Source of the DNA: a virus
Length of the DNA stretch: 10,507 bases
Virus genome (UHGV): UHGV-1707683
Direction: 5' to 3' (one strand)
The notes beneath the pieces are model-generated. The model saw nothing but the letters and a program-made list of their open reading frames with translations. It searched no databases and was not told the DNA's origin. Of the stretch, positions 411 to 5,787 are shown piece after piece; position 1 is the first letter of the stretch, and every line of letters begins with the position of its first letter. Position numbers and translations under genes: made by a program.

Positions 411-549
411 GACCTTTCTCCTTCTGCATCAGCTTCACTTTTTCCAACTCAGCCCGGAATCGACCAGGCTGCTTGAAGCTGGACAGGAAGCGATCACGTA
501 GTATGTGTTTGTGAATTTTGTCCTGGTAAGGACTGAGTTGTTTTGTCAT
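403..549 (-). CDS. Hypothetical small protein (48 aa) between cII and O, overlapping the O start by 8 nt
   Basis: ATG at 549..547 preceded on the minus strand by AGGAG with a 5-nt spacer; translation [48 protein letters not shown]; TAA stop at 405..403 overlaps the O start codon. Not in the supplied track (under its length cut-off). No family recognised. Confidence 0.4.
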
Positions 550-581
550 AATGACTCCTGTGGATTGATCCAGTAATTCCC

Positions 582-878
582 TCAGAATTGCATATCAATT
601 TGCTTAAAATCCTCGGTGGCGGCCGGGGATTTTTTCTTTGTGATTTCATCAAGCGCATACTTAAAAGCCCTGCTAATCGGACTGATGTCTGATGCCATTC
701 CGAAAGCACACAGAACCGAAGCAATAAATCTCCAGTCCGTCCTGCTTATCTTCGATTCATGACAGCCAATCATCTTTGCCAGACCGCGCTGGGTAATAGT
801 TGACAGGTTGATGAGTAAATCTGTTTCTGCGCGATCAACGTCACGCTGTGATAGTTTGCTGTAACTTGTTTGTTCCAT
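582..878 (-). CDS. cII: CII-like transcriptional activator
   Basis: 98-aa ORF whose C-terminus ([20 protein letters not shown]) and central helix-turn-helix segment (SKISRTDW) match my recollection of lambda CII (TNKKRPAATERSEQIQMEF; KSQISRWKRDW). Gene order cro-cII-O is conserved. Confidence 0.75.
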
Positions 879-963
879 TTCTTAAGATTTCCAATAGTGA
901 ATAGTTAGTTGAAAGGTATGCGTGGAAACGCATATGGCCTTAGTTGGTCAGATATATTGGGAC

Positions 964-983
964 TCGCTTTGTCAGCGACGTAG
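964..983 (-). promoter_or_regulatory. nutR-like site: boxB-type RNA hairpin (minus-strand RNA CUACG-UCGCU-GACAA-AGCGA) between cro and cII
   Basis: Plus strand 964..978 is TCGCT TTGTC AGCGA; on the cro/cII transcript this is a 5-bp stem with a 5-nt loop GACAA preceded by CTACG. It is almost identical to the hairpin upstream of N (4519..4538). The location matches lambda nutR. Confidence 0.55.
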
Positions 984-1016
984 GACGAATGTCCATTGTG
1001 AAAATAGCGGTGTTAC

Positions 1017-1250
1017 TTATGCAGCCGATGCTCTACGCGATACGAACACTAGGTTTTCCTTTTTCACAGGTTTATAACCCGTGAAATTACGAGTAGCTTC
1101 TTCGATTGCATTCGCTTTATCAGGGGAAGCTCTTCGAAATCCATATGCAATCTGGTCAAGATAGCCAACTGAAGTTTTCGCTAATGCGGCGAGTCGCTTC
1201 CATTCCTCACTAGAAGCCTCTTTTCGCCAGCGTAGTAGTTCATTACTCAT
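1017..1250 (-). CDS. cro: Cro-position HTH regulator, YdaS/Cro-like family
   Basis: 77-aa ORF divergent from cI. ATG at 1250..1248 preceded on the minus strand by GGAGG (plus 1256..1260 CCTCC). The segment ASPDKANAIEEATRNFTGY resembles the conserved core of YdaS-type Cro-like proteins of E. coli cryptic prophages as I recall them. The symbol is given by position and function, not by similarity to lambda Cro. Confidence 0.6.
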   Translation of the reverse strand: MSNELLRWRKEASSEEWKRLAALAKTSVGYLDQIAYGFRRASPDKANAIEEATRNFTGYKPVKKENLVFVSRRASAA

Positions 1251-1363
1251 TAGTGCCTCCGTTTATCACACAGAACAACTTTACCATTTTGATAAATCAT
1301 CCGCAATGTAAATTTATCATATTGCGTATTTATCCATTTGCTAAATAGAGGGAAAATTGTGAG
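1251..1363. promoter_or_regulatory. Right operator/promoter region (OR with divergent PR and PRM) between cro and cI
   Basis: 113-bp AT-rich divergent intergenic region containing repeated 17-bp dyads of the form TTTATC-N5-GATAAA: 1262..1278 (TTTATC acaca GAACAA), 1280..1296 (TTTACC atttt GATAAA), half-site 1313..1318, 1329..1345 (TTTATC cattt GCTAAA). The same motif recurs at OL (4412..4453). Confidence 0.6.
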
Positions 1364-2068
1364 ATGGAAAACAAAGATATTCGCAAATCGAATCTGGCGT
1401 TTTTGCTAGATGAGCATAAAAAAATCGCGGGTAACACTAATGCAAGCTTTGCCGATAAGCTTGGGGTTAGCCCTTCTCAACTCACGCAAGTCTCCGGTGA
1501 AAAAAGCACTCGAAACATAGGGGATAAACTAGCAAGAAAATTTGAAGCCGCGCTTGGGTTACCTAATGGGTGGCTTGATTTGGTACATGATGTAACACCA
1601 ATTGCATCATGCTCAGATTCTTTAACTTTTGTCGGTCAGGTAAGAAAAGGGTTAGTGCGCGTGGTTGGTGAGGCAATTCTTGGTGTTGATGGTGCCATCG
1701 AGATGACCGAAGAGCGCGATGGTTGGCTCAAAATTTATAGCGATGATCCAGATGCCTTTGGTCTTCGTGTGAAAGGAGACAGCATGTGGCCCAGAATAAA
1801 ATCAGGAGAATATGTACTCATTGAGCCTAACACCAAAGTATTCCCGGGTGATGAGGTGTTTGTCAGAACCGTTGAAGGACACAACATGATTAAGGTTCTT
1901 GGCTATGACAGAGATGGAGAATACCAATTTACAAGCATTAACCAGGATCACAGGCCTATAACGTTGCCTTATCATCAAGTAGCAAAGGTGGAGTATGTAG
2001 CTGGTATTCTGAAGCAATCTCGCCATCTGGATGACATCGAGGCAAGGGAGTGGCTGAAAAGTTCGTGA
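1364..2068 (+). CDS. cI: CI-type prophage repressor (N-terminal HTH, C-terminal LexA-like S24 autopeptidase domain)
   Basis: 234 aa. N-terminal HTH (ASFADKLGVSPSQLTQVSGEKS); C-terminal domain with the Ser-Lys dyad context VKGDSMWPRIKSGEYVLIEP ... GHNMIKVLGY typical of LexA/CI family. Divergent from the cro-like gene across an operator-bearing spacer. Confidence 0.85.
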   Translation: MENKDIRKSNLAFLLDEHKKIAGNTNASFADKLGVSPSQLTQVSGEKSTRNIGDKLARKFEAALGLPNGWLDLVHDVTPIASCSDSLTFVGQVRKGLVRVVGEAILGVDGAIEMTEERDGWLKIYSDDPDAFGLRVKGDSMWPRIKSGEYVLIEPNTKVFPGDEVFVRTVEGHNMIKVLGYDRDGEYQFTSINQDHRPITLPYHQVAKVEYVAGILKQSRHLDDIEAREWLKSS

Positions 2069-2128
2069 CTTCATCGTCACATAGCTGGTAACCAGTGGCC
2101 AGAAGAAACGTTTGGGTGAGGAGGATAG

Positions 2129-2470
2129 ATGGCGTTCACTGACCTTGAATATCAAGCGGTCAAAAAAGAAGTTCACCAATTCATTGAAAGCATAAGGCCG
2201 CCTGAACATATCCGCAATGAACTGGATATTGTTTATAGCATCAATGACCAAACGATAGATATCGGCGAACAGCGCCCCGTGTGGCAGGGCAACCCAGGTG
2301 AAACAAACATCCTGCCATCAGCAAGAATCAAGTACATACGTTCTCTGGATAGATGGAAAATCTATTGGATGCGGAAGGATATGAAATGGCATCAGTACAG
2401 TACTGAACTTTCGCTGACTGATGCGCTTGAGCTTGTGCGTGCTGACCCGGATTGCTGCTTCTTCGGATGA
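2129..2470 (+). CDS. Hypothetical protein (113 aa), first gene downstream of cI; possibly a DUF3024-like small protein
   Basis: ATG at 2129 preceded by GAGGAGG. Contains WKIYWMRKDMKWHQY, which I tentatively recall as characteristic of an uncharacterised ~110-aa bacterial family; this is unverified. Confidence 0.5.
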   Translation: MAFTDLEYQAVKKEVHQFIESIRPPEHIRNELDIVYSINDQTIDIGEQRPVWQGNPGETNILPSARIKYIRSLDRWKIYWMRKDMKWHQYSTELSLTDALELVRADPDCCFFG

Positions 2471-2537
2471 GTGAAGAGACGTTTGGATGATGGATGGTCG
2501 CAGAGATGCGGCCTGATTCTAAAATAGGATATAAAAA

Positions 2538-2999
2538 ATGAGAATACTAGGTGTTAGAGCGGCGCCCAAAGTTACATCTTTTGTTGTATATTGCACTAAT
2601 GAGTCTGCACTCAAATGTGTTGATGTTATTAAAATACCTTCGACCTTAGACACACCAGAAAAATTAAAGTATGTGAGAAATAACATCCTCGACATTCTTA
2701 ATTTATATAATGTTGAATTAGCTGCCATACGCGTTACTGAATCAAACTCTGATAATCTTAGCATTGACCGCCTTTATATAGAAGCTGTTATTCAAGAAGC
2801 ATTTTCAAGCAGTGATGTAAGAAAATATTACACTATTAGAAAATCTGGCATGAAATCATCATTGAACCTAACAGAGATCGAGTATAAAGAAATATTGAAG
2901 TCACACCGCAATATAAATGGAATCGATAATTCTGGTTTTACAACTGAAACAAATGAAGCTGTTTTGGCTGCTCTATCTGCGGAGGTAAGGGGATGCTAA
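2538..2999 (+). CDS. Hypothetical protein (153 aa), AT-rich, translationally coupled to the downstream kinase
   Basis: ATG at 2538 with AGGAT upstream; the stop TAA 2997..2999 overlaps the kinase start ATG 2993..2995 (7-nt overlap). Asn/Ser/Lys/Ile-rich; no motif recognised. Confidence 0.55.
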   Translation: MRILGVRAAPKVTSFVVYCTNESALKCVDVIKIPSTLDTPEKLKYVRNNILDILNLYNVELAAIRVTESNSDNLSIDRLYIEAVIQEAFSSSDVRKYYTIRKSGMKSSLNLTEIEYKEILKSHRNINGIDNSGFTTETNEAVLAALSAEVRGC

Positions 3000-4039
3000 C
3001 TCCATACAAAAGAGCTGATGTAGAATTCGAATGGATTAGTGATCTAGAAGAACAGGGTTGTTTTTCAAAAGTATATCTGGCTCATGACAGACACCTAGCT
3101 CATGACTTGGTGATTAAAGAAATAGAAAAAAAAGAAAACACTAACCACGACGACTACTTTAATGAAGCAAGGCTTCTCTATAAACATGCACATCCAAATA
3201 TTGTGCAAGTTCAGTATGCTGCTCAATGTGAGAGCAATATCTATATAGCCATGCCATTTTATCATAATGGTTCGCTAAACCAATTAATGAAAAAAAATAA
3301 TCTTACAAGCAGGGAGATAATACGGTATTCCATTCAATTTTTAAGTGGACTTTATCATATACACTCAAAAGGTCTTATGCATTTTGATATAAAACCTAAT
3401 AACATTATGATATCAAACAGAAATGAGGCCATGCTATCTGACTTTGGATTATCTCAGTTAGTCAATGAGGAATCGAGAGCTGCGCCTGAGTTTGGATATC
3501 ATTTTCATGTGCCACCGGAATATTTTTCTTTATCAACAAATGATTATAATTTCACATATGACATATATCAGGCAGGATTAACCATATATAGAATGTGTGT
3601 TGGACATGATAATTTTGAAAGAGAAAGATCTGCATTTAGCACGATTGAACAACTCAGAGAGTCGATAATTAATGGCTGCTATCCATTAAAAGAGTATCCT
3701 CCCCATATACATAAAAAATTAATAACAATAGTGAACAAATGCATTCATGTAGATCCAAATGAAAGATATCAATCCGTACTAGATGTACTAAACGATCTCT
3801 CAGCTATAAGTGATGGCGTTCTTGACTGGCGTCTACAGATGACGAAACCAACTAACGGCACATGCGAATGGCAAAAAAAGTCTGGGGACGCTATACTGTC
3901 TATAGTTTTTGACGCAGAAAATTCGTCTACTACTGGTTTTCGTTTATACGATGATGGGCGGAAAAGGCGTGCTACGAACTTAACAATATCCTCAGGATGT
4001 ACCCCTACAAAACTGTATAGGTTATTAAAGGATAACTGA
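2993..4039 (+). CDS. Eukaryotic-like (Hanks-type) protein kinase, 348 aa, non-RD type with C-terminal extension
   Basis: GGAGG at 2981..2985 then ATG 2993. Kinase subdomain motifs read from the translation: beta-3 Lys in LVIKEI (about K42), alpha-C Glu in YFNEARLL, catalytic loop HFDIKPNNIM (D132, nt about 3380..3409), DFG in LSDFGLS (nt about 3440..3448), APE-like PPEY, subdomain IX DIYQAGLTIY. Glycine loop is degenerate (EQGCFSKVY). About 85 residues follow the catalytic core. Position and family are reminiscent of Stk of phage 933W (from memory, unverified). Confidence 0.85.
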   Translation: MLTPYKRADVEFEWISDLEEQGCFSKVYLAHDRHLAHDLVIKEIEKKENTNHDDYFNEARLLYKHAHPNIVQVQYAAQCESNIYIAMPFYHNGSLNQLMKKNNLTSREIIRYSIQFLSGLYHIHSKGLMHFDIKPNNIMISNRNEAMLSDFGLSQLVNEESRAAPEFGYHFHVPPEYFSLSTNDYNFTYDIYQAGLTIYRMCVGHDNFERERSAFSTIEQLRESIINGCYPLKEYPPHIHKKLITIVNKCIHVDPNERYQSVLDVLNDLSAISDGVLDWRLQMTKPTNGTCEWQKKSGDAILSIVFDAENSSTTGFRLYDDGRKRRATNLTISSGCTPTKLYRLLKDN

Positions 4040-4041
4040 TC

Positions 4042-4206
4042 ATGAAAAAGCGCGAGGAAGTAAGCAAGCTGCCTCGCAGACGTGATGCAGCATTAGCGGT
4101 TCCCTACAAAAAAGATGAGTTCATAAGCCCTTCTGATGACAAAAAATTTTCAAAGGCGAAAAGTTTTACATCTACATCTCTAAAAGATAAATACTTTAAA
4201 ATCTAG
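4042..4206 (+). CDS. Hypothetical small Lys-rich protein (54 aa) between kinase and terminator
   Basis: ATG 4042 two nt after the kinase stop; translation MKKREEVSKLPRRRDAALAVPYKKDEFISPSDDKKFSKAKSFTSTSLKDKYFKI; TAG stop at 4204..4206 abuts the terminator stem. Weak SD (AAGGA about 10 nt upstream). Not in the supplied track (under its length cut-off). Confidence 0.35.
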   Translation: MKKREEVSKLPRRRDAALAVPYKKDEFISPSDDKKFSKAKSFTSTSLKDKYFKI

Positions 4207-4230
4207 CCCGGCCTCAGCGCCGGGTTTTCT
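4206..4230 (+). terminator. Rho-independent terminator ending the cI-kinase (lysogenic) operon
   Basis: Stem CCCGGC (4207..4212) / GCCGGG (4219..4224), 6-nt loop, followed by TTTTCTTT (4225 onward). Confidence 0.7.
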
Positions 4231-4404
4231 TTGCCTCACGATCCCCCACCTAAAAAAACATAACTCATTGTATTTGTTGAAAAATAAATAGATACAACTT
4301 GCTAAACAACGCAATCCAGATCTCCCTCAAATCTCTTTATTTATCCTGTCGAATTCCTACAACAAAATAAAACACCATAAGAATCAATACGATATTTGAA
4401 AACG

Positions 4405-4460
4405 AAGAGAATTTATCATTTTGCTATTGCCATTAATTTATCATTCCGATAAAGTTCACC
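4405..4460. promoter_or_regulatory. Left operator/promoter region (OL/PL)
   Basis: Perfect 17-bp dyad TTTATC attcc GATAAA at 4437..4453 and a related site with TTTATC at 4412..4417, 25 bp apart. The motif is the same as in OR. A possible promoter lies on it: -35 TTGCCA 4427..4432 and -10 TAAAGT 4450..4455 (17-bp spacer). Lies upstream of nutL and N. Confidence 0.55.
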
Positions 4461-4518
4461 CATCAGCAGGACGCATTACTCACCAGGGCGGTGAATATAC
4501 AACGATTCGAATATGAAT

Positions 4519-4538
4519 CTACGGCGCTGACAAAGCGC
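4519..4538 (+). promoter_or_regulatory. nutL-like site: boxB-type RNA hairpin CUACG-GCGCU-GACAA-AGCGC upstream of N
   Basis: 5-bp stem GCGCT (4524..4528) / AGCGC (4534..4538), 5-nt loop GACAA, preceded by CTACG. It is near-identical to the minus-strand hairpin at 964..983, with a compensatory change in the outer base pair (G-C versus U-A). Geometry resembles lambda boxB (5-bp stem, GAAAA loop). Confidence 0.6.
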
Positions 4539-4703
4539 AATAACCAAAGTGAACTTTGGGGTGTGGTGAATGGTTCATGGACGGGAATATGTCGCACGTA
4601 AAGCGGCGAGGCCTGTGGGACTATTGCCGAATTGAAGTAGGCCGAAACAGGTCGAAATGGGTCTCCCACCTACCACACCACCAAAGTTCATCAGGAGGTC
4701 TAT

Positions 4704-5087
4704 ATGACACGCAGAACTCAGTTCAAAGGCAATTCACGTTCTCGTCGTCGTGAGCGTTTAAAGGCAAAGGCATTAGCTAACTGCGTACTGGCCCGCGAAG
4801 AAGCAATAAGTTCAGAAGTATTACACCGCCCTACTCTAAGCAGAGCGCAGATTCAGGCTAAAGGTACTCACGAAACGCCTGAGCGCATAGAAGACGCTAA
4901 GCCAATTAAGTTCATGGCACAGGACGTGATCTGGCAACAGAAAGAATACAGACGCAATCTGGAGCGAGCAGCCATTGTGTACGCGAATGAGTTTGGACAT
5001 AAGCAACCAGAAACTGGTGTATGTCTTCCAAACGTAGCCATTTACGCGGCAGGCTACCGGAAATCAAAACAACTGACGGCGAGGTGA
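4704..5087 (+). CDS. N: N-type transcription antitermination protein
   Basis: 127 aa; AGGAGG at 4693..4698 then ATG 4704. N-terminal arginine-rich motif (RRTQFKGNSRSRRRERLKAKALA) typical of lambdoid N proteins; first gene after OL/PL and the nut hairpin. The sequence looks to me like the N of Stx phages 933W/H-19B (recollection, unverified). Confidence 0.8.
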   Translation: MTRRTQFKGNSRSRRRERLKAKALANCVLAREEAISSEVLHRPTLSRAQIQAKGTHETPERIEDAKPIKFMAQDVIWQQKEYRRNLERAAIVYANEFGHKQPETGVCLPNVAIYAAGYRKSKQLTAR

Positions 5088-5148
5088 CTTGTGTTGGTCG
5101 CCAGAAAATGAGATTAGGCAGCAAACCACTTATTTGAGAGGAATTAAT

Positions 5149-5772
5149 ATGTCATCAATCCGCTTAACTACGAGAATGAAAGAGGAAATCGCTCGTAACG
5201 CTTTAATTAAGTCTGGGGTTTTCACTGAACTTGAAGAAGTAACAAAGTTAAAGAACCAGCTTGCACTTGACGCCAGAGTTATTGCGTTTGGCGGGAAAAA
5301 GAAAACCGAAGAAGTGGACCAGCTGGCATCAAAGTTAATGGCTGCAAGTGAGGAACTTCAAAAGCTGGGATGTTCATTTTACTCATGCGATGTCAGTTCA
5401 TGTTCGATTTATCTGACTGTATCTGGAAGAAGGGTTGGCTGGCATTCATACGGAAAAGACGGCAACGGTGAAGATATATTGCTCCCTACCCCCGACAAAG
5501 ATAAATGCATGTTTGACGCAGAACACAAAATAACAAAAAGGTTTGATGAAATCTGCGCATTGCAACAAAAACTTGAAGCCAGGAAAAAGGATATAGAATC
5601 AAACGTATGGGCTGCTTTGAACTCAGTCACAACAGTTAAGCGACTTATTGAAGTTTGGCCTGAAAGCAAAGAGTTGCTACCAAAAGAAGCAGATAAAGCA
5701 AGTGCAGCACTTCCTGCTTTACGGGTAGAAGATTTGAATAAGATGATTGGACTTCCTTCCGAGGCCGCATAA
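5149..5772 (+). CDS. Hypothetical protein (207 aa from ATG 5149; alternative TTG start at 5089)
   Basis: ATG 5149 preceded by GAGAGG; the track's longer ORF needs a TTG start one nt after the N stop. Predicted helical/coiled-coil-like segments; no catalytic motif recognised. Confidence 0.55.
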   Translation: MSSIRLTTRMKEEIARNALIKSGVFTELEEVTKLKNQLALDARVIAFGGKKKTEEVDQLASKLMAASEELQKLGCSFYSCDVSSCSIYLTVSGRRVGWHSYGKDGNGEDILLPTPDKDKCMFDAEHKITKRFDEICALQQKLEARKKDIESNVWAALNSVTTVKRLIEVWPESKELLPKEADKASAALPALRVEDLNKMIGLPSEAA

Positions 5773-5787
5773 TCGGCCTTTATTTTT
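5762..5787 (+). terminator. Rho-independent terminator (tL1-like) with the stop codon of the preceding gene in its loop
   Basis: Stem AGGCCG (5762..5767) / CGGCCT (5774..5779), loop CATAAT containing TAA 5770..5772, then TTTATTTTT. Confidence 0.65.

What the first reader, a model, noticed from the sequence alone, without database searches (positions are those of the whole stretch)
2129..4230. Kinase cassette in the cI-to-N interval (the rexAB-equivalent slot): candidate prophage exclusion/abortive-infection system
Between the cI stop and the terminator at 4206..4230 lie four co-directional ORFs: 113 aa, 153 aa, a 348-aa eukaryotic-like kinase and 54 aa. They have no separate terminator, so they would be co-transcribed with the repressor in the lysogen. 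From 2520 to 4210 the DNA is conspicuously AT-rich: a sampled 60-nt line at 3301 has 19 G+C versus 29 in a cI line at 1681, which suggests horizontal acquisition. The kinase has intact catalytic motifs (VIK, HFDIKPNN, DFG, PPEY). In lambda this slot holds rexAB, and in Stx phage 933W a kinase (Stk) in the immunity region was reported to exclude phage HK97 by abortive infection (my recollection of published work). The flanking proteins have no recognisable function and may be undescribed partners or sensors.
Basis: partly seen in the sequence, partly recalled or inferred. Interest (0 to 1): 0.85.

Follow-up and report, generated by a model that had tools for sequence, protein, structure and literature searches.

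The report
Phage 933W Stk kinase exclusion cassette
This is the already-published Stk kinase cassette of Shiga-toxin phage 933W, which makes a lysogen abort infection by phage HK97; what is new here is that the kinase travels across many bacterial phyla with two uncharacterised partner genes.

Summary
It is not a new candidate. Window 1641-4280 is 99.4% identical to phage 933W. The kinase, the 153-aa protein and the 54-aa protein are 100% identical to 933W Stk, L0083 and L0081, and the 113-aa protein is 111/113 identical to L0084. Citing papers report that Stk is a tyrosine kinase co-transcribed with cI that aborts HK97 infection. The 113- and 153-aa proteins have been detected in lysogens. 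The four genes are two units. DUF3024 (113 aa) follows repressor genes in many phages without the kinase and stays in place when the kinase block is swapped out. The AT-rich block 2510-4203 is one exchangeable module. In 80 of 80 related loci from several phyla, and in a Bacillus phage, the kinase is preceded by an overlapping gene for the 153-aa protein. That protein has a RuvC fold, but invariant arginines replace two catalytic carboxylates. In 67 of 80 loci a ~55-aa ORF follows the kinase. I found no description of this trio. Verdict: already known, with a testable lead.

The parts
1277..1356 (.). OR-like operator / PRM region between the cro-like gene (1017-1250, - strand) and cI (context, not part of the cassette)
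   Evidence: TTTATCA/TGATAAA-type repeats at 1285-1297, 1312-1324 and 1326-1356 have partners at 4402-4456. The position matches oR/pM in the 933W annotation, but the sequence differs from 933W (no match between 1026 and 1641). The promoter itself is inferred.
1364..2068 (+). cI repressor (S24 peptidase C-terminal half); first gene of the lysogenic transcript
   Evidence: Pfam Peptidase_S24, E 3.8e-16. Only 164/234 residues match 933W CI. DNA homology to 933W starts at 1641, inside cI.
2129..2470 (+). 113-aa DUF3024 protein (933W L0084); a separate repressor-linked gene, not part of the kinase module
   Evidence: Pfam DUF3024, E 2.4e-31. PADLOC candidate PDC-S43, E 7e-42. 111/113 identical to 933W L0084. 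Detected as a protein in Phi24B lysogens (PMC3342100). Present in 144 phage records, against 41 for the 153-aa gene. Retained when the kinase block is replaced. G+C 0.459.
2510..4203 (+). Exchangeable AT-rich three-gene module (153 aa + Stk + 54 aa)
   Evidence: A prophage of E. coli 14EC017 matches the window at 539-2509 (98.9%) and 4204-5932 (96%) but carries two unrelated ORFs in between. G+C is about 0.35, against 0.44-0.46 in the flanks.
2538..2999 (+). 153-aa RuvC-fold protein (933W L0083) lacking the canonical catalytic tetrad; obligate upstream partner of the kinase
2993..4039 (+). stk: 348-aa Hanks-type protein kinase (residues ~12-270) with a conserved C-terminal beta-sheet/helix domain (~288-347)
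4042..4206 (+). 54-aa basic peptide (933W L0081); positionally conserved third gene
   Evidence: 100% identical to 933W L0081. Starts 2 nt after the stk stop. Homologues occur in Klebsiella and Proteus prophages with an invariant A-x-P-Y motif and a C-terminal FK. A 45-80-aa ORF starts within -12..+16 nt of the kinase stop in 67/80 loci, against 11-12% in controls. Cross-clade homology is not statistically demonstrable.
4205..4236 (+). Intrinsic terminator (933W tM; equivalent to the lambda terminator after rexB)
   Evidence: Hairpin at 4205-4226 with 8 pairs (6 G-C) plus a T-run. Annotated in 933W as 'tM; putative terminator for pM transcript'. Bases 4204-4240 match the lambda sequence annotated under rexB at 97% (H46).
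4402..4456 (.). OL-like operator repeats between the terminator and nutL/N (context: the far edge of the immunity region)
   Evidence: Repeat families D1 and I1 pair this stretch with 1277-1324. The region 4280-4463 has no match to 933W, whereas the flanks are 99% identical.

Best explanation
The interval holds the Stk abortive-infection cassette of Shiga-toxin phage 933W, carried here by a mosaic lambdoid prophage with a different repressor specificity. SHOWN, from sequence and citing papers: in the lysogen the repressor promoter transcribes cI, the DUF3024 gene and the three-gene block as far as terminator tM. Stk is a Hanks-type kinase reported to phosphorylate tyrosine. It has little activity in uninfected cells, is switched on when phage HK97 infects, and the infection then aborts. 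RECOLLECTION, not verified here: the trigger is HK97 gp41, and activated Stk phosphorylates many host proteins. It is translationally coupled to a RuvC-fold protein upstream and a ~55-aa basic peptide downstream, and this trio is one mobile unit found in many phyla. In the RuvC-fold protein, invariant arginines replace two of the four metal-binding carboxylates. I therefore think it is not a Holliday-junction resolvase. I propose it is the sensing or regulatory subunit, binding a phage DNA structure or a phage protein and releasing the kinase. I propose the small peptide holds the kinase in check or acts as a pseudo-substrate. DUF3024 is a separate repressor-linked accessory gene of unknown role.
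Against: I could not read the primary papers (Tyler & Friedman 2004; Friedman et al. 2011). If they show that stk alone on a plasmid excludes HK97, the partners are not essential for that phenotype. The R7=D7 and R65=E66 equivalence rests on a weak hhalign match (probability 1.8%) plus the secondary-structure register, not on a measured superposition. Invariant E68, E82, E87 and E140 could still form a non-canonical active site. The Pseudomonas clade (L020-L027) lacks the small ORF. A leave-clade-out HMM does not recover the window's 54-aa ORF (E 1.6, rank 3 of 154). The roles I assign to the partners are hypotheses with no direct evidence.
Confidence: 0.85

Rival explanations
1. All four ORFs form one four-component defence system, with DUF3024 as a partner or sensor of the kinase.
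For: All four are co-directional, lack an internal terminator and share the cI transcript. DUF3024 matches a PADLOC defence candidate, PDC-S43. The trio and DUF3024 co-occur again in Proteus penneri (L015).
Against: DUF3024 is absent from 79 of 80 kinase loci and from the Klebsiella, Proteus and metagenome contexts. It occurs in 144 phage records, against 41 for the 153-aa gene. It always sits right after a repressor gene, followed by different cargo. Its G+C is 0.459, against about 0.35 for the kinase block. It stays in place when the kinase block is replaced.
Confidence: 0.05
2. The 153-aa protein is a working RuvC-type Holliday-junction resolvase for phage recombination, as RefSeq and PHROGs annotate it, and merely sits next to the kinase.
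Against: The positions of catalytic D7 and E66 hold arginines: R7 in 79 of 80 aligned sequences and R65 in all 82. The D138 equivalent is not conserved. The NCBIfam RuvC score is 12.5 bits against a cut-off of 163. A family profile finds no RuvC in the PDB. The gene is expressed in the lysogen with cI, not with the recombination genes (PMC3342100). It is coupled to the kinase in 80/80 loci, many outside phages.
Confidence: 0.07
3. The kinase module mainly regulates the prophage's own lysogeny or induction, or host physiology or virulence. Phage exclusion would then be a side effect, as for the KKP kinase-phosphatase module of Pf prophages.
For: It sits in the immunity operon next to cI. A prophage kinase module controlling both lysogeny and defence is known from its title and abstract only (PMC11341870, listed). 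The cassette is common in Stx phages and is present in full in 223 of 5426 complete E. coli genomes.
Against: A prophage with the same cI, cro and operators carries different cargo in the slot, so the module is not needed for the switch. The module is widespread outside prophages and in non-pathogens, beside restriction, Wadjet, dGTPase/dCTPase and other defence genes. PMC3681748 reports, as data not shown, that the A/E-lesion phenotype of its etk wzc mutant was unaffected by absence of stk, and that Stk has limited activity in uninfected cells.
Confidence: 0.08

Closest known systems
Phage 933W stk operon (cI-L0084-L0083-stk-L0081-tM); Tyler & Friedman 2004, Friedman et al. 2011
   Same: It is the same DNA, 99.4% identical. 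Three of the four proteins are identical and the fourth differs at two residues. The gene order, terminator and position between cI and N are the same.
   Different: The host phage is heteroimmune. The N-terminal half of cI, cro, OR (1026-1641) and the OL region (4280-4463) do not match 933W. The left-arm genes beyond N are a different mosaic, and no phage or complete E. coli record covers 80% or more of the window.
Lambda RexAB
   Same: Both sit downstream of cI on the lysogenic transcript and end at a homologous terminator (H46). Both give abortive-infection-type exclusion of a heterologous phage (PMC3564112; PMC6356687).
   Different: There is no sequence relationship: none of the four proteins hits Rex in PADLOC or Pfam. 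The effector is a protein kinase; from my own knowledge, RexB is a membrane protein.
Single-gene kinase defence families: PD-T4-6 (PADLOC) and staphylococcal Stk2
   Same: All are Hanks-type kinase domains used for phage defence. The PADLOC PD-T4-6 models hit Stk residues 20-276 at E as low as 1e-37. Stk2 being triggered by a phage protein is my own knowledge (Depardieu et al. 2016, seen here only in the reference list of PMC9122126).
   Different: The match covers the kinase domain only. The Stk family has its own conserved C-terminal domain and an obligate RuvC-fold partner. The NCBIfam Stk1/PknB model scores 122 bits against a cut-off of 450.
MADS system kinase MAD6
   Same: It is the best PADLOC hit (mad6, E 6.7e-50) and the best NCBIfam hit (antiphage_MADS6, E 2.5e-35) to the kinase domain.
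   Different: The score is 122 bits against a curated cut-off of 460. MAD6 models are 612-659 positions long, against 348 aa here. No other MADS genes lie nearby.
RuvC Holliday-junction resolvase and RuvC-fold domains in non-nuclease proteins (TEFM, the RuvC/YqgF-like domain of Tex and Spt6)
   Different: D7 and E66 are replaced by Arg (R7 in 79 of 80 aligned sequences, R65 in all 82), and a distinct invariant constellation of R47, R78, E68, E82, E87 and E140 is present. There is no sequence-level link to RuvC.

Membership tests
933W Stk abortive-infection cassette | Kinase protein is Stk of 933W | tested here: met
   348/348 residues identical to NP_049482 / AAD25427.
933W Stk abortive-infection cassette | Operon layout cI - L0084 - L0083 - stk - L0081 - tM, between cI and nutL/N | tested here: met
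   Same order and spacing; L0083 and L0081 are identical and L0084 is 111/113 identical; the terminator lies at the annotated tM position.
933W Stk abortive-infection cassette | Intact kinase catalytic residues (VAIK Lys, HRD-type Asp, DFG Asp) | tested here: met
   K42, D132 and D150 are present and invariant in 40 homologues.
933W Stk abortive-infection cassette | Tyrosine-kinase activity and exclusion of HK97 by abortive infection | not testable with these tools
   Known only from papers that cite Tyler & Friedman 2004 and Friedman 2011. The primary papers are not held.
Lambda RexAB | Homology to RexA / RexB | tested here: not met
   No Rex family among the PADLOC or Pfam hits of the four proteins.
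Lambda RexAB | Located after cI on the PRM transcript, ending at the immunity-region terminator | tested here: met
   Window 4204-4240 matches, at 97%, the lambda sequence annotated under rexB (H46). There is no earlier terminator.
RuvC Holliday-junction resolvase (153-aa protein) | RuvC / RNase H-like fold | tested here: met
RuvC Holliday-junction resolvase (153-aa protein) | Catalytic tetrad D7, E66, D138, D141 (E. coli numbering; my own knowledge of RuvC, with the sequence checked against 1HJR) | tested here: not met
   ILGVR aligns with ILGID and AAI-R with FAI-E. R7 is R in 79 of 80 aligned sequences and R65 in all 82. The D138 equivalent is variable, and only E140 (approximately D141) is kept. 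Caveat: the register comes from a weak profile alignment plus the strand positions, not from a superposition.
RuvC Holliday-junction resolvase (153-aa protein) | Passes the curated RuvC sequence model | tested here: not met
   NCBIfam NF000711 scores 12.5 bits against a cut-off of 163. There is no Pfam hit. A family profile finds no RuvC chain in the PDB.
PD-T4-6 (PADLOC kinase defence family) | Match to the family's HMMs | tested here: inconclusive
   The best model hits at E 1e-37 (128 bits) over the kinase domain only. The family-specific C-terminal domain and the obligate partner genes are not part of that single-gene definition, which I know from memory.
MADS MAD6 kinase | Passes the NCBIfam equivalog cut-off | tested here: not met
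   122.1 bits against a cut-off of 460.
PADLOC candidate PDC-S43 / Pfam DUF3024 (113-aa protein) | Full-length match to the family model | tested here: met
   PDC-S43 E 7.2e-42 over positions 1-115 of 115. DUF3024 scores 108.7 bits against a cut-off of 24.9. A defence role for this family is only a candidate and was not tested.

The most novel reading that the evidence does not exclude
933W Stk is not a stand-alone kinase but the effector of an undescribed three-gene defence system that is widespread. Its parts are a RuvC-fold protein whose nuclease site has been rebuilt around invariant arginines, a Stk-type kinase with its own C-terminal beta-domain, and a ~55-aa basic peptide. The trio moves as one cassette between prophage immunity regions, defence islands and even Bacillus SPbeta-like phages. 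In this reading the pseudo-RuvC subunit senses phage DNA structures or trigger proteins and gates the kinase.
Probability: 0.4. Interest if true: 0.6.

Novelty: already known. Interest (0 to 1): 0.33.

Why it matters
As submitted, the finding rediscovers a published system, and its main value is as a correct annotation. The Stx-phage cassette is present in full in 223 of 5426 complete E. coli genomes, and this window shows it inserted into a second immunity type. The lead is more useful. The kinase has been discussed as a single protein, yet it is genetically locked to two uncharacterised partners in Proteobacteria, Bacteroidota, Ignavibacteria, a cyanobacterium and a Bacillus phage. That makes two questions directly testable: how a bacterial Hanks kinase is kept silent, and how a phage switches it on. 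It also suggests that the 'RuvC-like Holliday junction resolvase' label now spreading through RefSeq and PHROGs is probably a misannotation. Finally, the slot between DUF3024 and tM behaves as a cargo hotspot. Its other occupants include an unannotated 162 + 206-aa pair and, in Salmonella phage SE1, a ParA-like gene, and these may be worth screening for defence.

Tried and rejected
(1) Reading the primary papers. Tyler & Friedman 2004 (PMC415781), Tyler, Mills & Friedman 2004 (PMC524894) and Friedman et al. 2011 (DOI and PMID) are not held. The functional claims therefore rest on citing papers, and the gp41 trigger rests on my memory.

(2) Literature searches for a RuvC-plus-kinase defence pair, PDC-S43, DUF3024, and HK97 gp41 with Stk found nothing relevant.

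(3) phmmer with the 54-aa peptide found only the Proteus locus, and I first concluded the ORF was local. A positional test reversed that. However, a leave-clade-out HMM still does not recover the window's peptide, so cross-clade homology remains unproven.

(4) A 153-aa family profile searched against PDB sequences found no RuvC. Only the fold comparison made the link.

(5) Internal promoter upstream of the 153-aa gene, which would explain the much higher transcript level reported in PMC3342100. The consensus scan found no + strand site in 2400-2540, and overall counts were at chance, 10 found against 11 expected.

(6) A further conserved gene around the module: none, with at most 3 of 148 neighbours sharing a family.

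(7) Identity of the Stk C-terminal domain: no PDB chain aligns beyond the kinase domain, with at most 277 residues aligned.

(8) Source of the window: no phage record or complete E. coli genome covers 80% or more of it.

(9) The replacement cargo in strain 14EC017 has no Pfam or PADLOC hit.
Full report
**What is there.** The window is the early control region of a lambdoid prophage. On the - strand lie cII (582-878) and a cro-like gene (1017-1250). On the + strand lie a cI repressor with an S24 peptidase domain (1364-2068), four further ORFs, and then N (4704-5087). The four ORFs are 2129-2470 (113 aa), 2538-2999 (153 aa), 2993-4039 (348 aa) and 4042-4206 (54 aa). A strong hairpin with a T-run at 4205-4226 is the only + strand terminator-like site between the cI stop and N.

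G+C falls from 0.44-0.46 in cI and the 113-aa ORF to about 0.35 across 2520-4210. Operator-like TTTATCA/TGATAAA repeats occur both next to cI (1277-1356) and between the terminator and N (4402-4456). The cassette therefore lies inside the immunity region.

**It is the 933W stk operon.** Window 1641-4280 is 99.36% identical to phage 933W, and 4463-5138 is 99.26% identical. The 153-aa, 348-aa and 54-aa proteins are identical to 933W L0083, Stk and L0081. The 113-aa protein differs from L0084 at two residues. The 1999 GenBank record of 933W already annotates stk and 'tM; putative terminator for pM transcript' at the matching positions.

I could not obtain the primary papers, but papers that cite them agree on four points:
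- Stk is a eukaryote-like tyrosine kinase expressed by the prophage.
- It is co-transcribed with cI.
- It is activated by HK97 infection and aborts it.

These come from PMC3681748, PMC6356687, PMC8008677 and PMC3564112. That HK97 gp41 is the trigger is my recollection only.

Riley et al. (PMC3342100) detected the 113-aa protein (their P2 = NP_049484) and the 153-aa protein (P3 = NP_049483) by 2D-PAGE and mass spectrometry in Phi24B lysogens. They found cI-like, lysogen-restricted transcript profiles for both. The bases at 4204-4240 match the lambda sequence annotated under the end of rexB (H46), so the 'rexAB-equivalent slot' is literally true.

The full cassette is present in 223 of 5426 complete E. 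coli genomes and in 38 phage records.

**What differs from 933W.** Homology to 933W starts inside cI at 1641. The N-terminal half of cI (164/234 identical overall), cro, OR and the OL stretch 4280-4463 do not match. The same kinase cassette thus sits in a different immunity type. No phage record or complete E. coli genome covers 80% or more of the window, so the window is a new mosaic of known modules.

**The four ORFs are two units.**

*Distribution.* tblastn finds the DUF3024 gene in 144 phage records, but the 153-aa gene in only 41.

*Position.* DUF3024 always follows a repressor gene directly, and the cargo after it varies:
- a ParA-like gene in Salmonella phage SE1;
- other ORFs in a Morganella phage, where DUF3024 is only 33% identical;
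- a decayed copy in Stx2 phage 1717.

*Natural swap.* A prophage in E. coli 14EC017 has the same cII-cro-cI-DUF3024 stretch as the window (539-2509, 98.9%) and the same terminator-to-N side (from 4204, 96%). Between these points it carries two unrelated ORFs of 162 and 206 aa. Nature has therefore exchanged exactly 2510-4203. That block is the AT-rich stretch and holds the 153-aa gene, stk and the 54-aa gene.

**The kinase has an obligate upstream partner.** Starting from 153-aa homologues at 42-70% identity, every context examined had an overlapping 345-349-aa kinase gene next. These were Klebsiella and Proteus prophages with different backbones, a metagenome contig beside the Wadjet genes JetC/JetD, and further metagenome contigs. 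None of them had DUF3024.

For the reverse test I scanned one genome per species for Stk-family kinases. There were 252 relatives, and the best 80 were kept, at 36-57% identity. They come from Enterobacterales, Pseudomonas, Vibrionaceae, Burkholderiales, Sphingomonadales, Rhizobiales, Bacteroidota, Ignavibacteria and a cyanobacterium. All 80 have a 153-aa-family ORF directly upstream on the same strand (E 1e-33 to 1e-75), with its stop overlapping or abutting the kinase start.

Bacillus phage SPbetaL6 has the same layout, genes 73/72/71 of 167, 350 and 60 aa, with E 4e-30 and 2e-104 for the first two.

No other neighbour is conserved: at most 3 of 148 flanking ORFs share a family. The surroundings hold integrases, transposases, type I restriction enzymes, dGTPase, dCTPase, AriA, capP and a STAND NTPase.

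The partner family is discrete. It has 443 representative clusters at E <= 1e-3 among 1.84 billion proteins, and nearly all of the 150 best hits listed are ~150-165-aa stand-alone proteins.

A weak profile alignment, consistent with the strand positions, pairs ILGVR(3-7) with RuvC ILGID(3-7) and AAI(62-64) with FAI(63-65). This puts R7 at catalytic D7 and R65 at catalytic E66 (RuvC sequence verified against 1HJR).

Across 82 sequences from all these phyla:
- R7 is R in 79, K in one and a gap in two.
- R47, R65, R78, E68, E82, E87 and E140 are invariant.
- D52 is nearly invariant.
- The D138 equivalent varies.

**The small ORF.** Homologues of the 54-aa peptide follow the kinase in Klebsiella and Proteus prophages at 26-41% identity, with an invariant A-x-P-Y motif and a C-terminal FK. 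In the 80 distant loci, a 45-80-aa ORF starts within -12 to +16 nt of the kinase stop in 67 cases. The control rates are 12.2% at random anchors and 10.7% at the stops of other long ORFs.

Within clades these peptides are clearly conserved. Across clades they share a basic N-terminal motif with a near-invariant Arg, and a C-terminal aromatic motif. Two caveats apply. An HMM built without the enterobacterial sequences does not recover the window's peptide (E 1.6, rank 3 of 154 ORFs). The Pseudomonas clade also lacks the ORF. The third gene is therefore supported by position and motif, not by demonstrable homology.

PADLOC's PD-T4-6 and mad6 models and NCBIfam's MAD6, PknB and PglW models hit only the kinase domain, and all NCBIfam scores fall far below the curated cut-offs. 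The 153-aa and 54-aa proteins have no PADLOC hit. I found no paper describing a RuvC-fold-plus-kinase defence pair.

**How it most likely works.**

*Shown, or reported by others.* The cassette is transcribed with cI in the lysogen. Stk is quiescent until HK97 infects, then it is activated and the infection aborts.

*Inferred here.* Stk acts as part of a translationally coupled trio. I propose that the arginine-rich RuvC-fold protein is the sensing or regulatory subunit, binding a phage DNA intermediate or a phage trigger protein. I propose that the small basic peptide restrains the kinase or acts as a pseudo-substrate. These roles are hypotheses.

*Rivals.*
- A four-gene system including DUF3024: contradicted by distribution and by the natural swap.
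- A true resolvase that merely neighbours the kinase: contradicted by the active-site substitutions, the lysogenic expression and the 80/80 linkage.
- A module that mainly controls lysogeny or virulence: contradicted by the swap within an identical immunity region and by the module's wide occurrence outside prophages and pathogens.

**Verdict.** The residual interest lies in the conserved three-gene architecture and the pseudo-RuvC partner, which I could not find described and which simple deletions would test.

Noticed in passing
window 1026-1641 and 4280-4463: The repressor specificity determinants (N-terminal half of cI, cro, OR and the OL stretch) have no match to 933W, although the DNA on both sides is 99% identical. 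E. coli 14EC017 has the same cII-cro-cI stretch (539-2509, 98.9%). The stk cassette has therefore been recombined into a second immunity type, with one junction inside cI at about 1641.
   Followed up: partly
L013 3388-4493 (E. coli 14EC017, NZ_CP024134); same slot as window 2510-4203: Two overlapping ORFs of 162 and 206 aa occupy the slot between DUF3024 and the terminator in place of the kinase module. Neither has a Pfam or PADLOC hit. In Salmonella phage SE1 the same slot holds a ParA-like gene. The slot behaves as a cargo hotspot whose other occupants are uncharacterised.
   Followed up: partly
window 2471-2537 and about 2784-2864: Riley et al. (PMC3342100) report transcript levels of the 153-aa gene about five orders of magnitude above cI. 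The Stx2 converting phage I record (AP004402) annotates 'putative operators' and a 'putative maintenance promoter' inside the 153-aa gene. My consensus scan found no + strand promoter-like site in 2400-2540 or in 2784-2864. Whether a second promoter drives the module is unexplained.
   Followed up: partly
L096 2986-4744 (Bacillus phage SPbetaL6, OQ921346, genes 73-71): A Firmicute SPbeta-like phage carries the same trio of a RuvC-fold protein (167 aa), a Stk-family kinase (350 aa) and a small peptide (60 aa). All three are annotated as hypothetical.
   Followed up: partly
L009 1-4585 (metagenome contig SRR33270636_560192): The RuvC-fold/kinase pair lies directly downstream of Wadjet-type genes: an SMC-like JetC with SbcC_Walker_B, and JetD_C. 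This is a defence-island context with no prophage genes in view.
   Followed up: no
window 4204-4240: This 34-37-nt terminator stretch alone matches several hundred E. coli genomes that lack the rest of the cassette (817 genomes match any part of 2100-4240, but only 223 hold 80% or more of it). One of these matches lies in lambda under the rexB annotation. The terminator may serve as the conserved right-hand recombination anchor of the cargo slot.
   Followed up: no
window 5149-5769: The first gene after N encodes an Nmad5 (nucleotide-modification-associated domain 5) protein, E 1.1e-68. The matching position in 933W holds a different hypothetical gene, L0079.
   Followed up: no
window 6433-10319: The remaining left-arm ORFs look like ordinary lambdoid early genes: an AAA_24 ATPase (6433-7110), an Ead/Ea22-like protein (8882-9742), a DUF551 protein (9744-10319), and several ORFs with no Pfam hit (7110-7694, 8189-8671, 8671-8973).
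   Followed up: no
window 2538-2999, residues 89-92 of the 153-aa protein: The motif F-S-S-S contains two serines, S91 and S92, that are nearly invariant across 82 sequences from many phyla. In a protein locked to a kinase these are candidate phospho-acceptor sites. Nothing was tested.
   Followed up: no
L020-L027 (Pseudomonas and Geopseudomonas loci): This clade has the RuvC-fold/kinase pair but no small ORF starting at the kinase stop. Only unrelated 33-44-aa ORFs appear more than 100 nt downstream, in four of the eight loci. The third gene is either dispensable or replaced in this clade.
   Followed up: no
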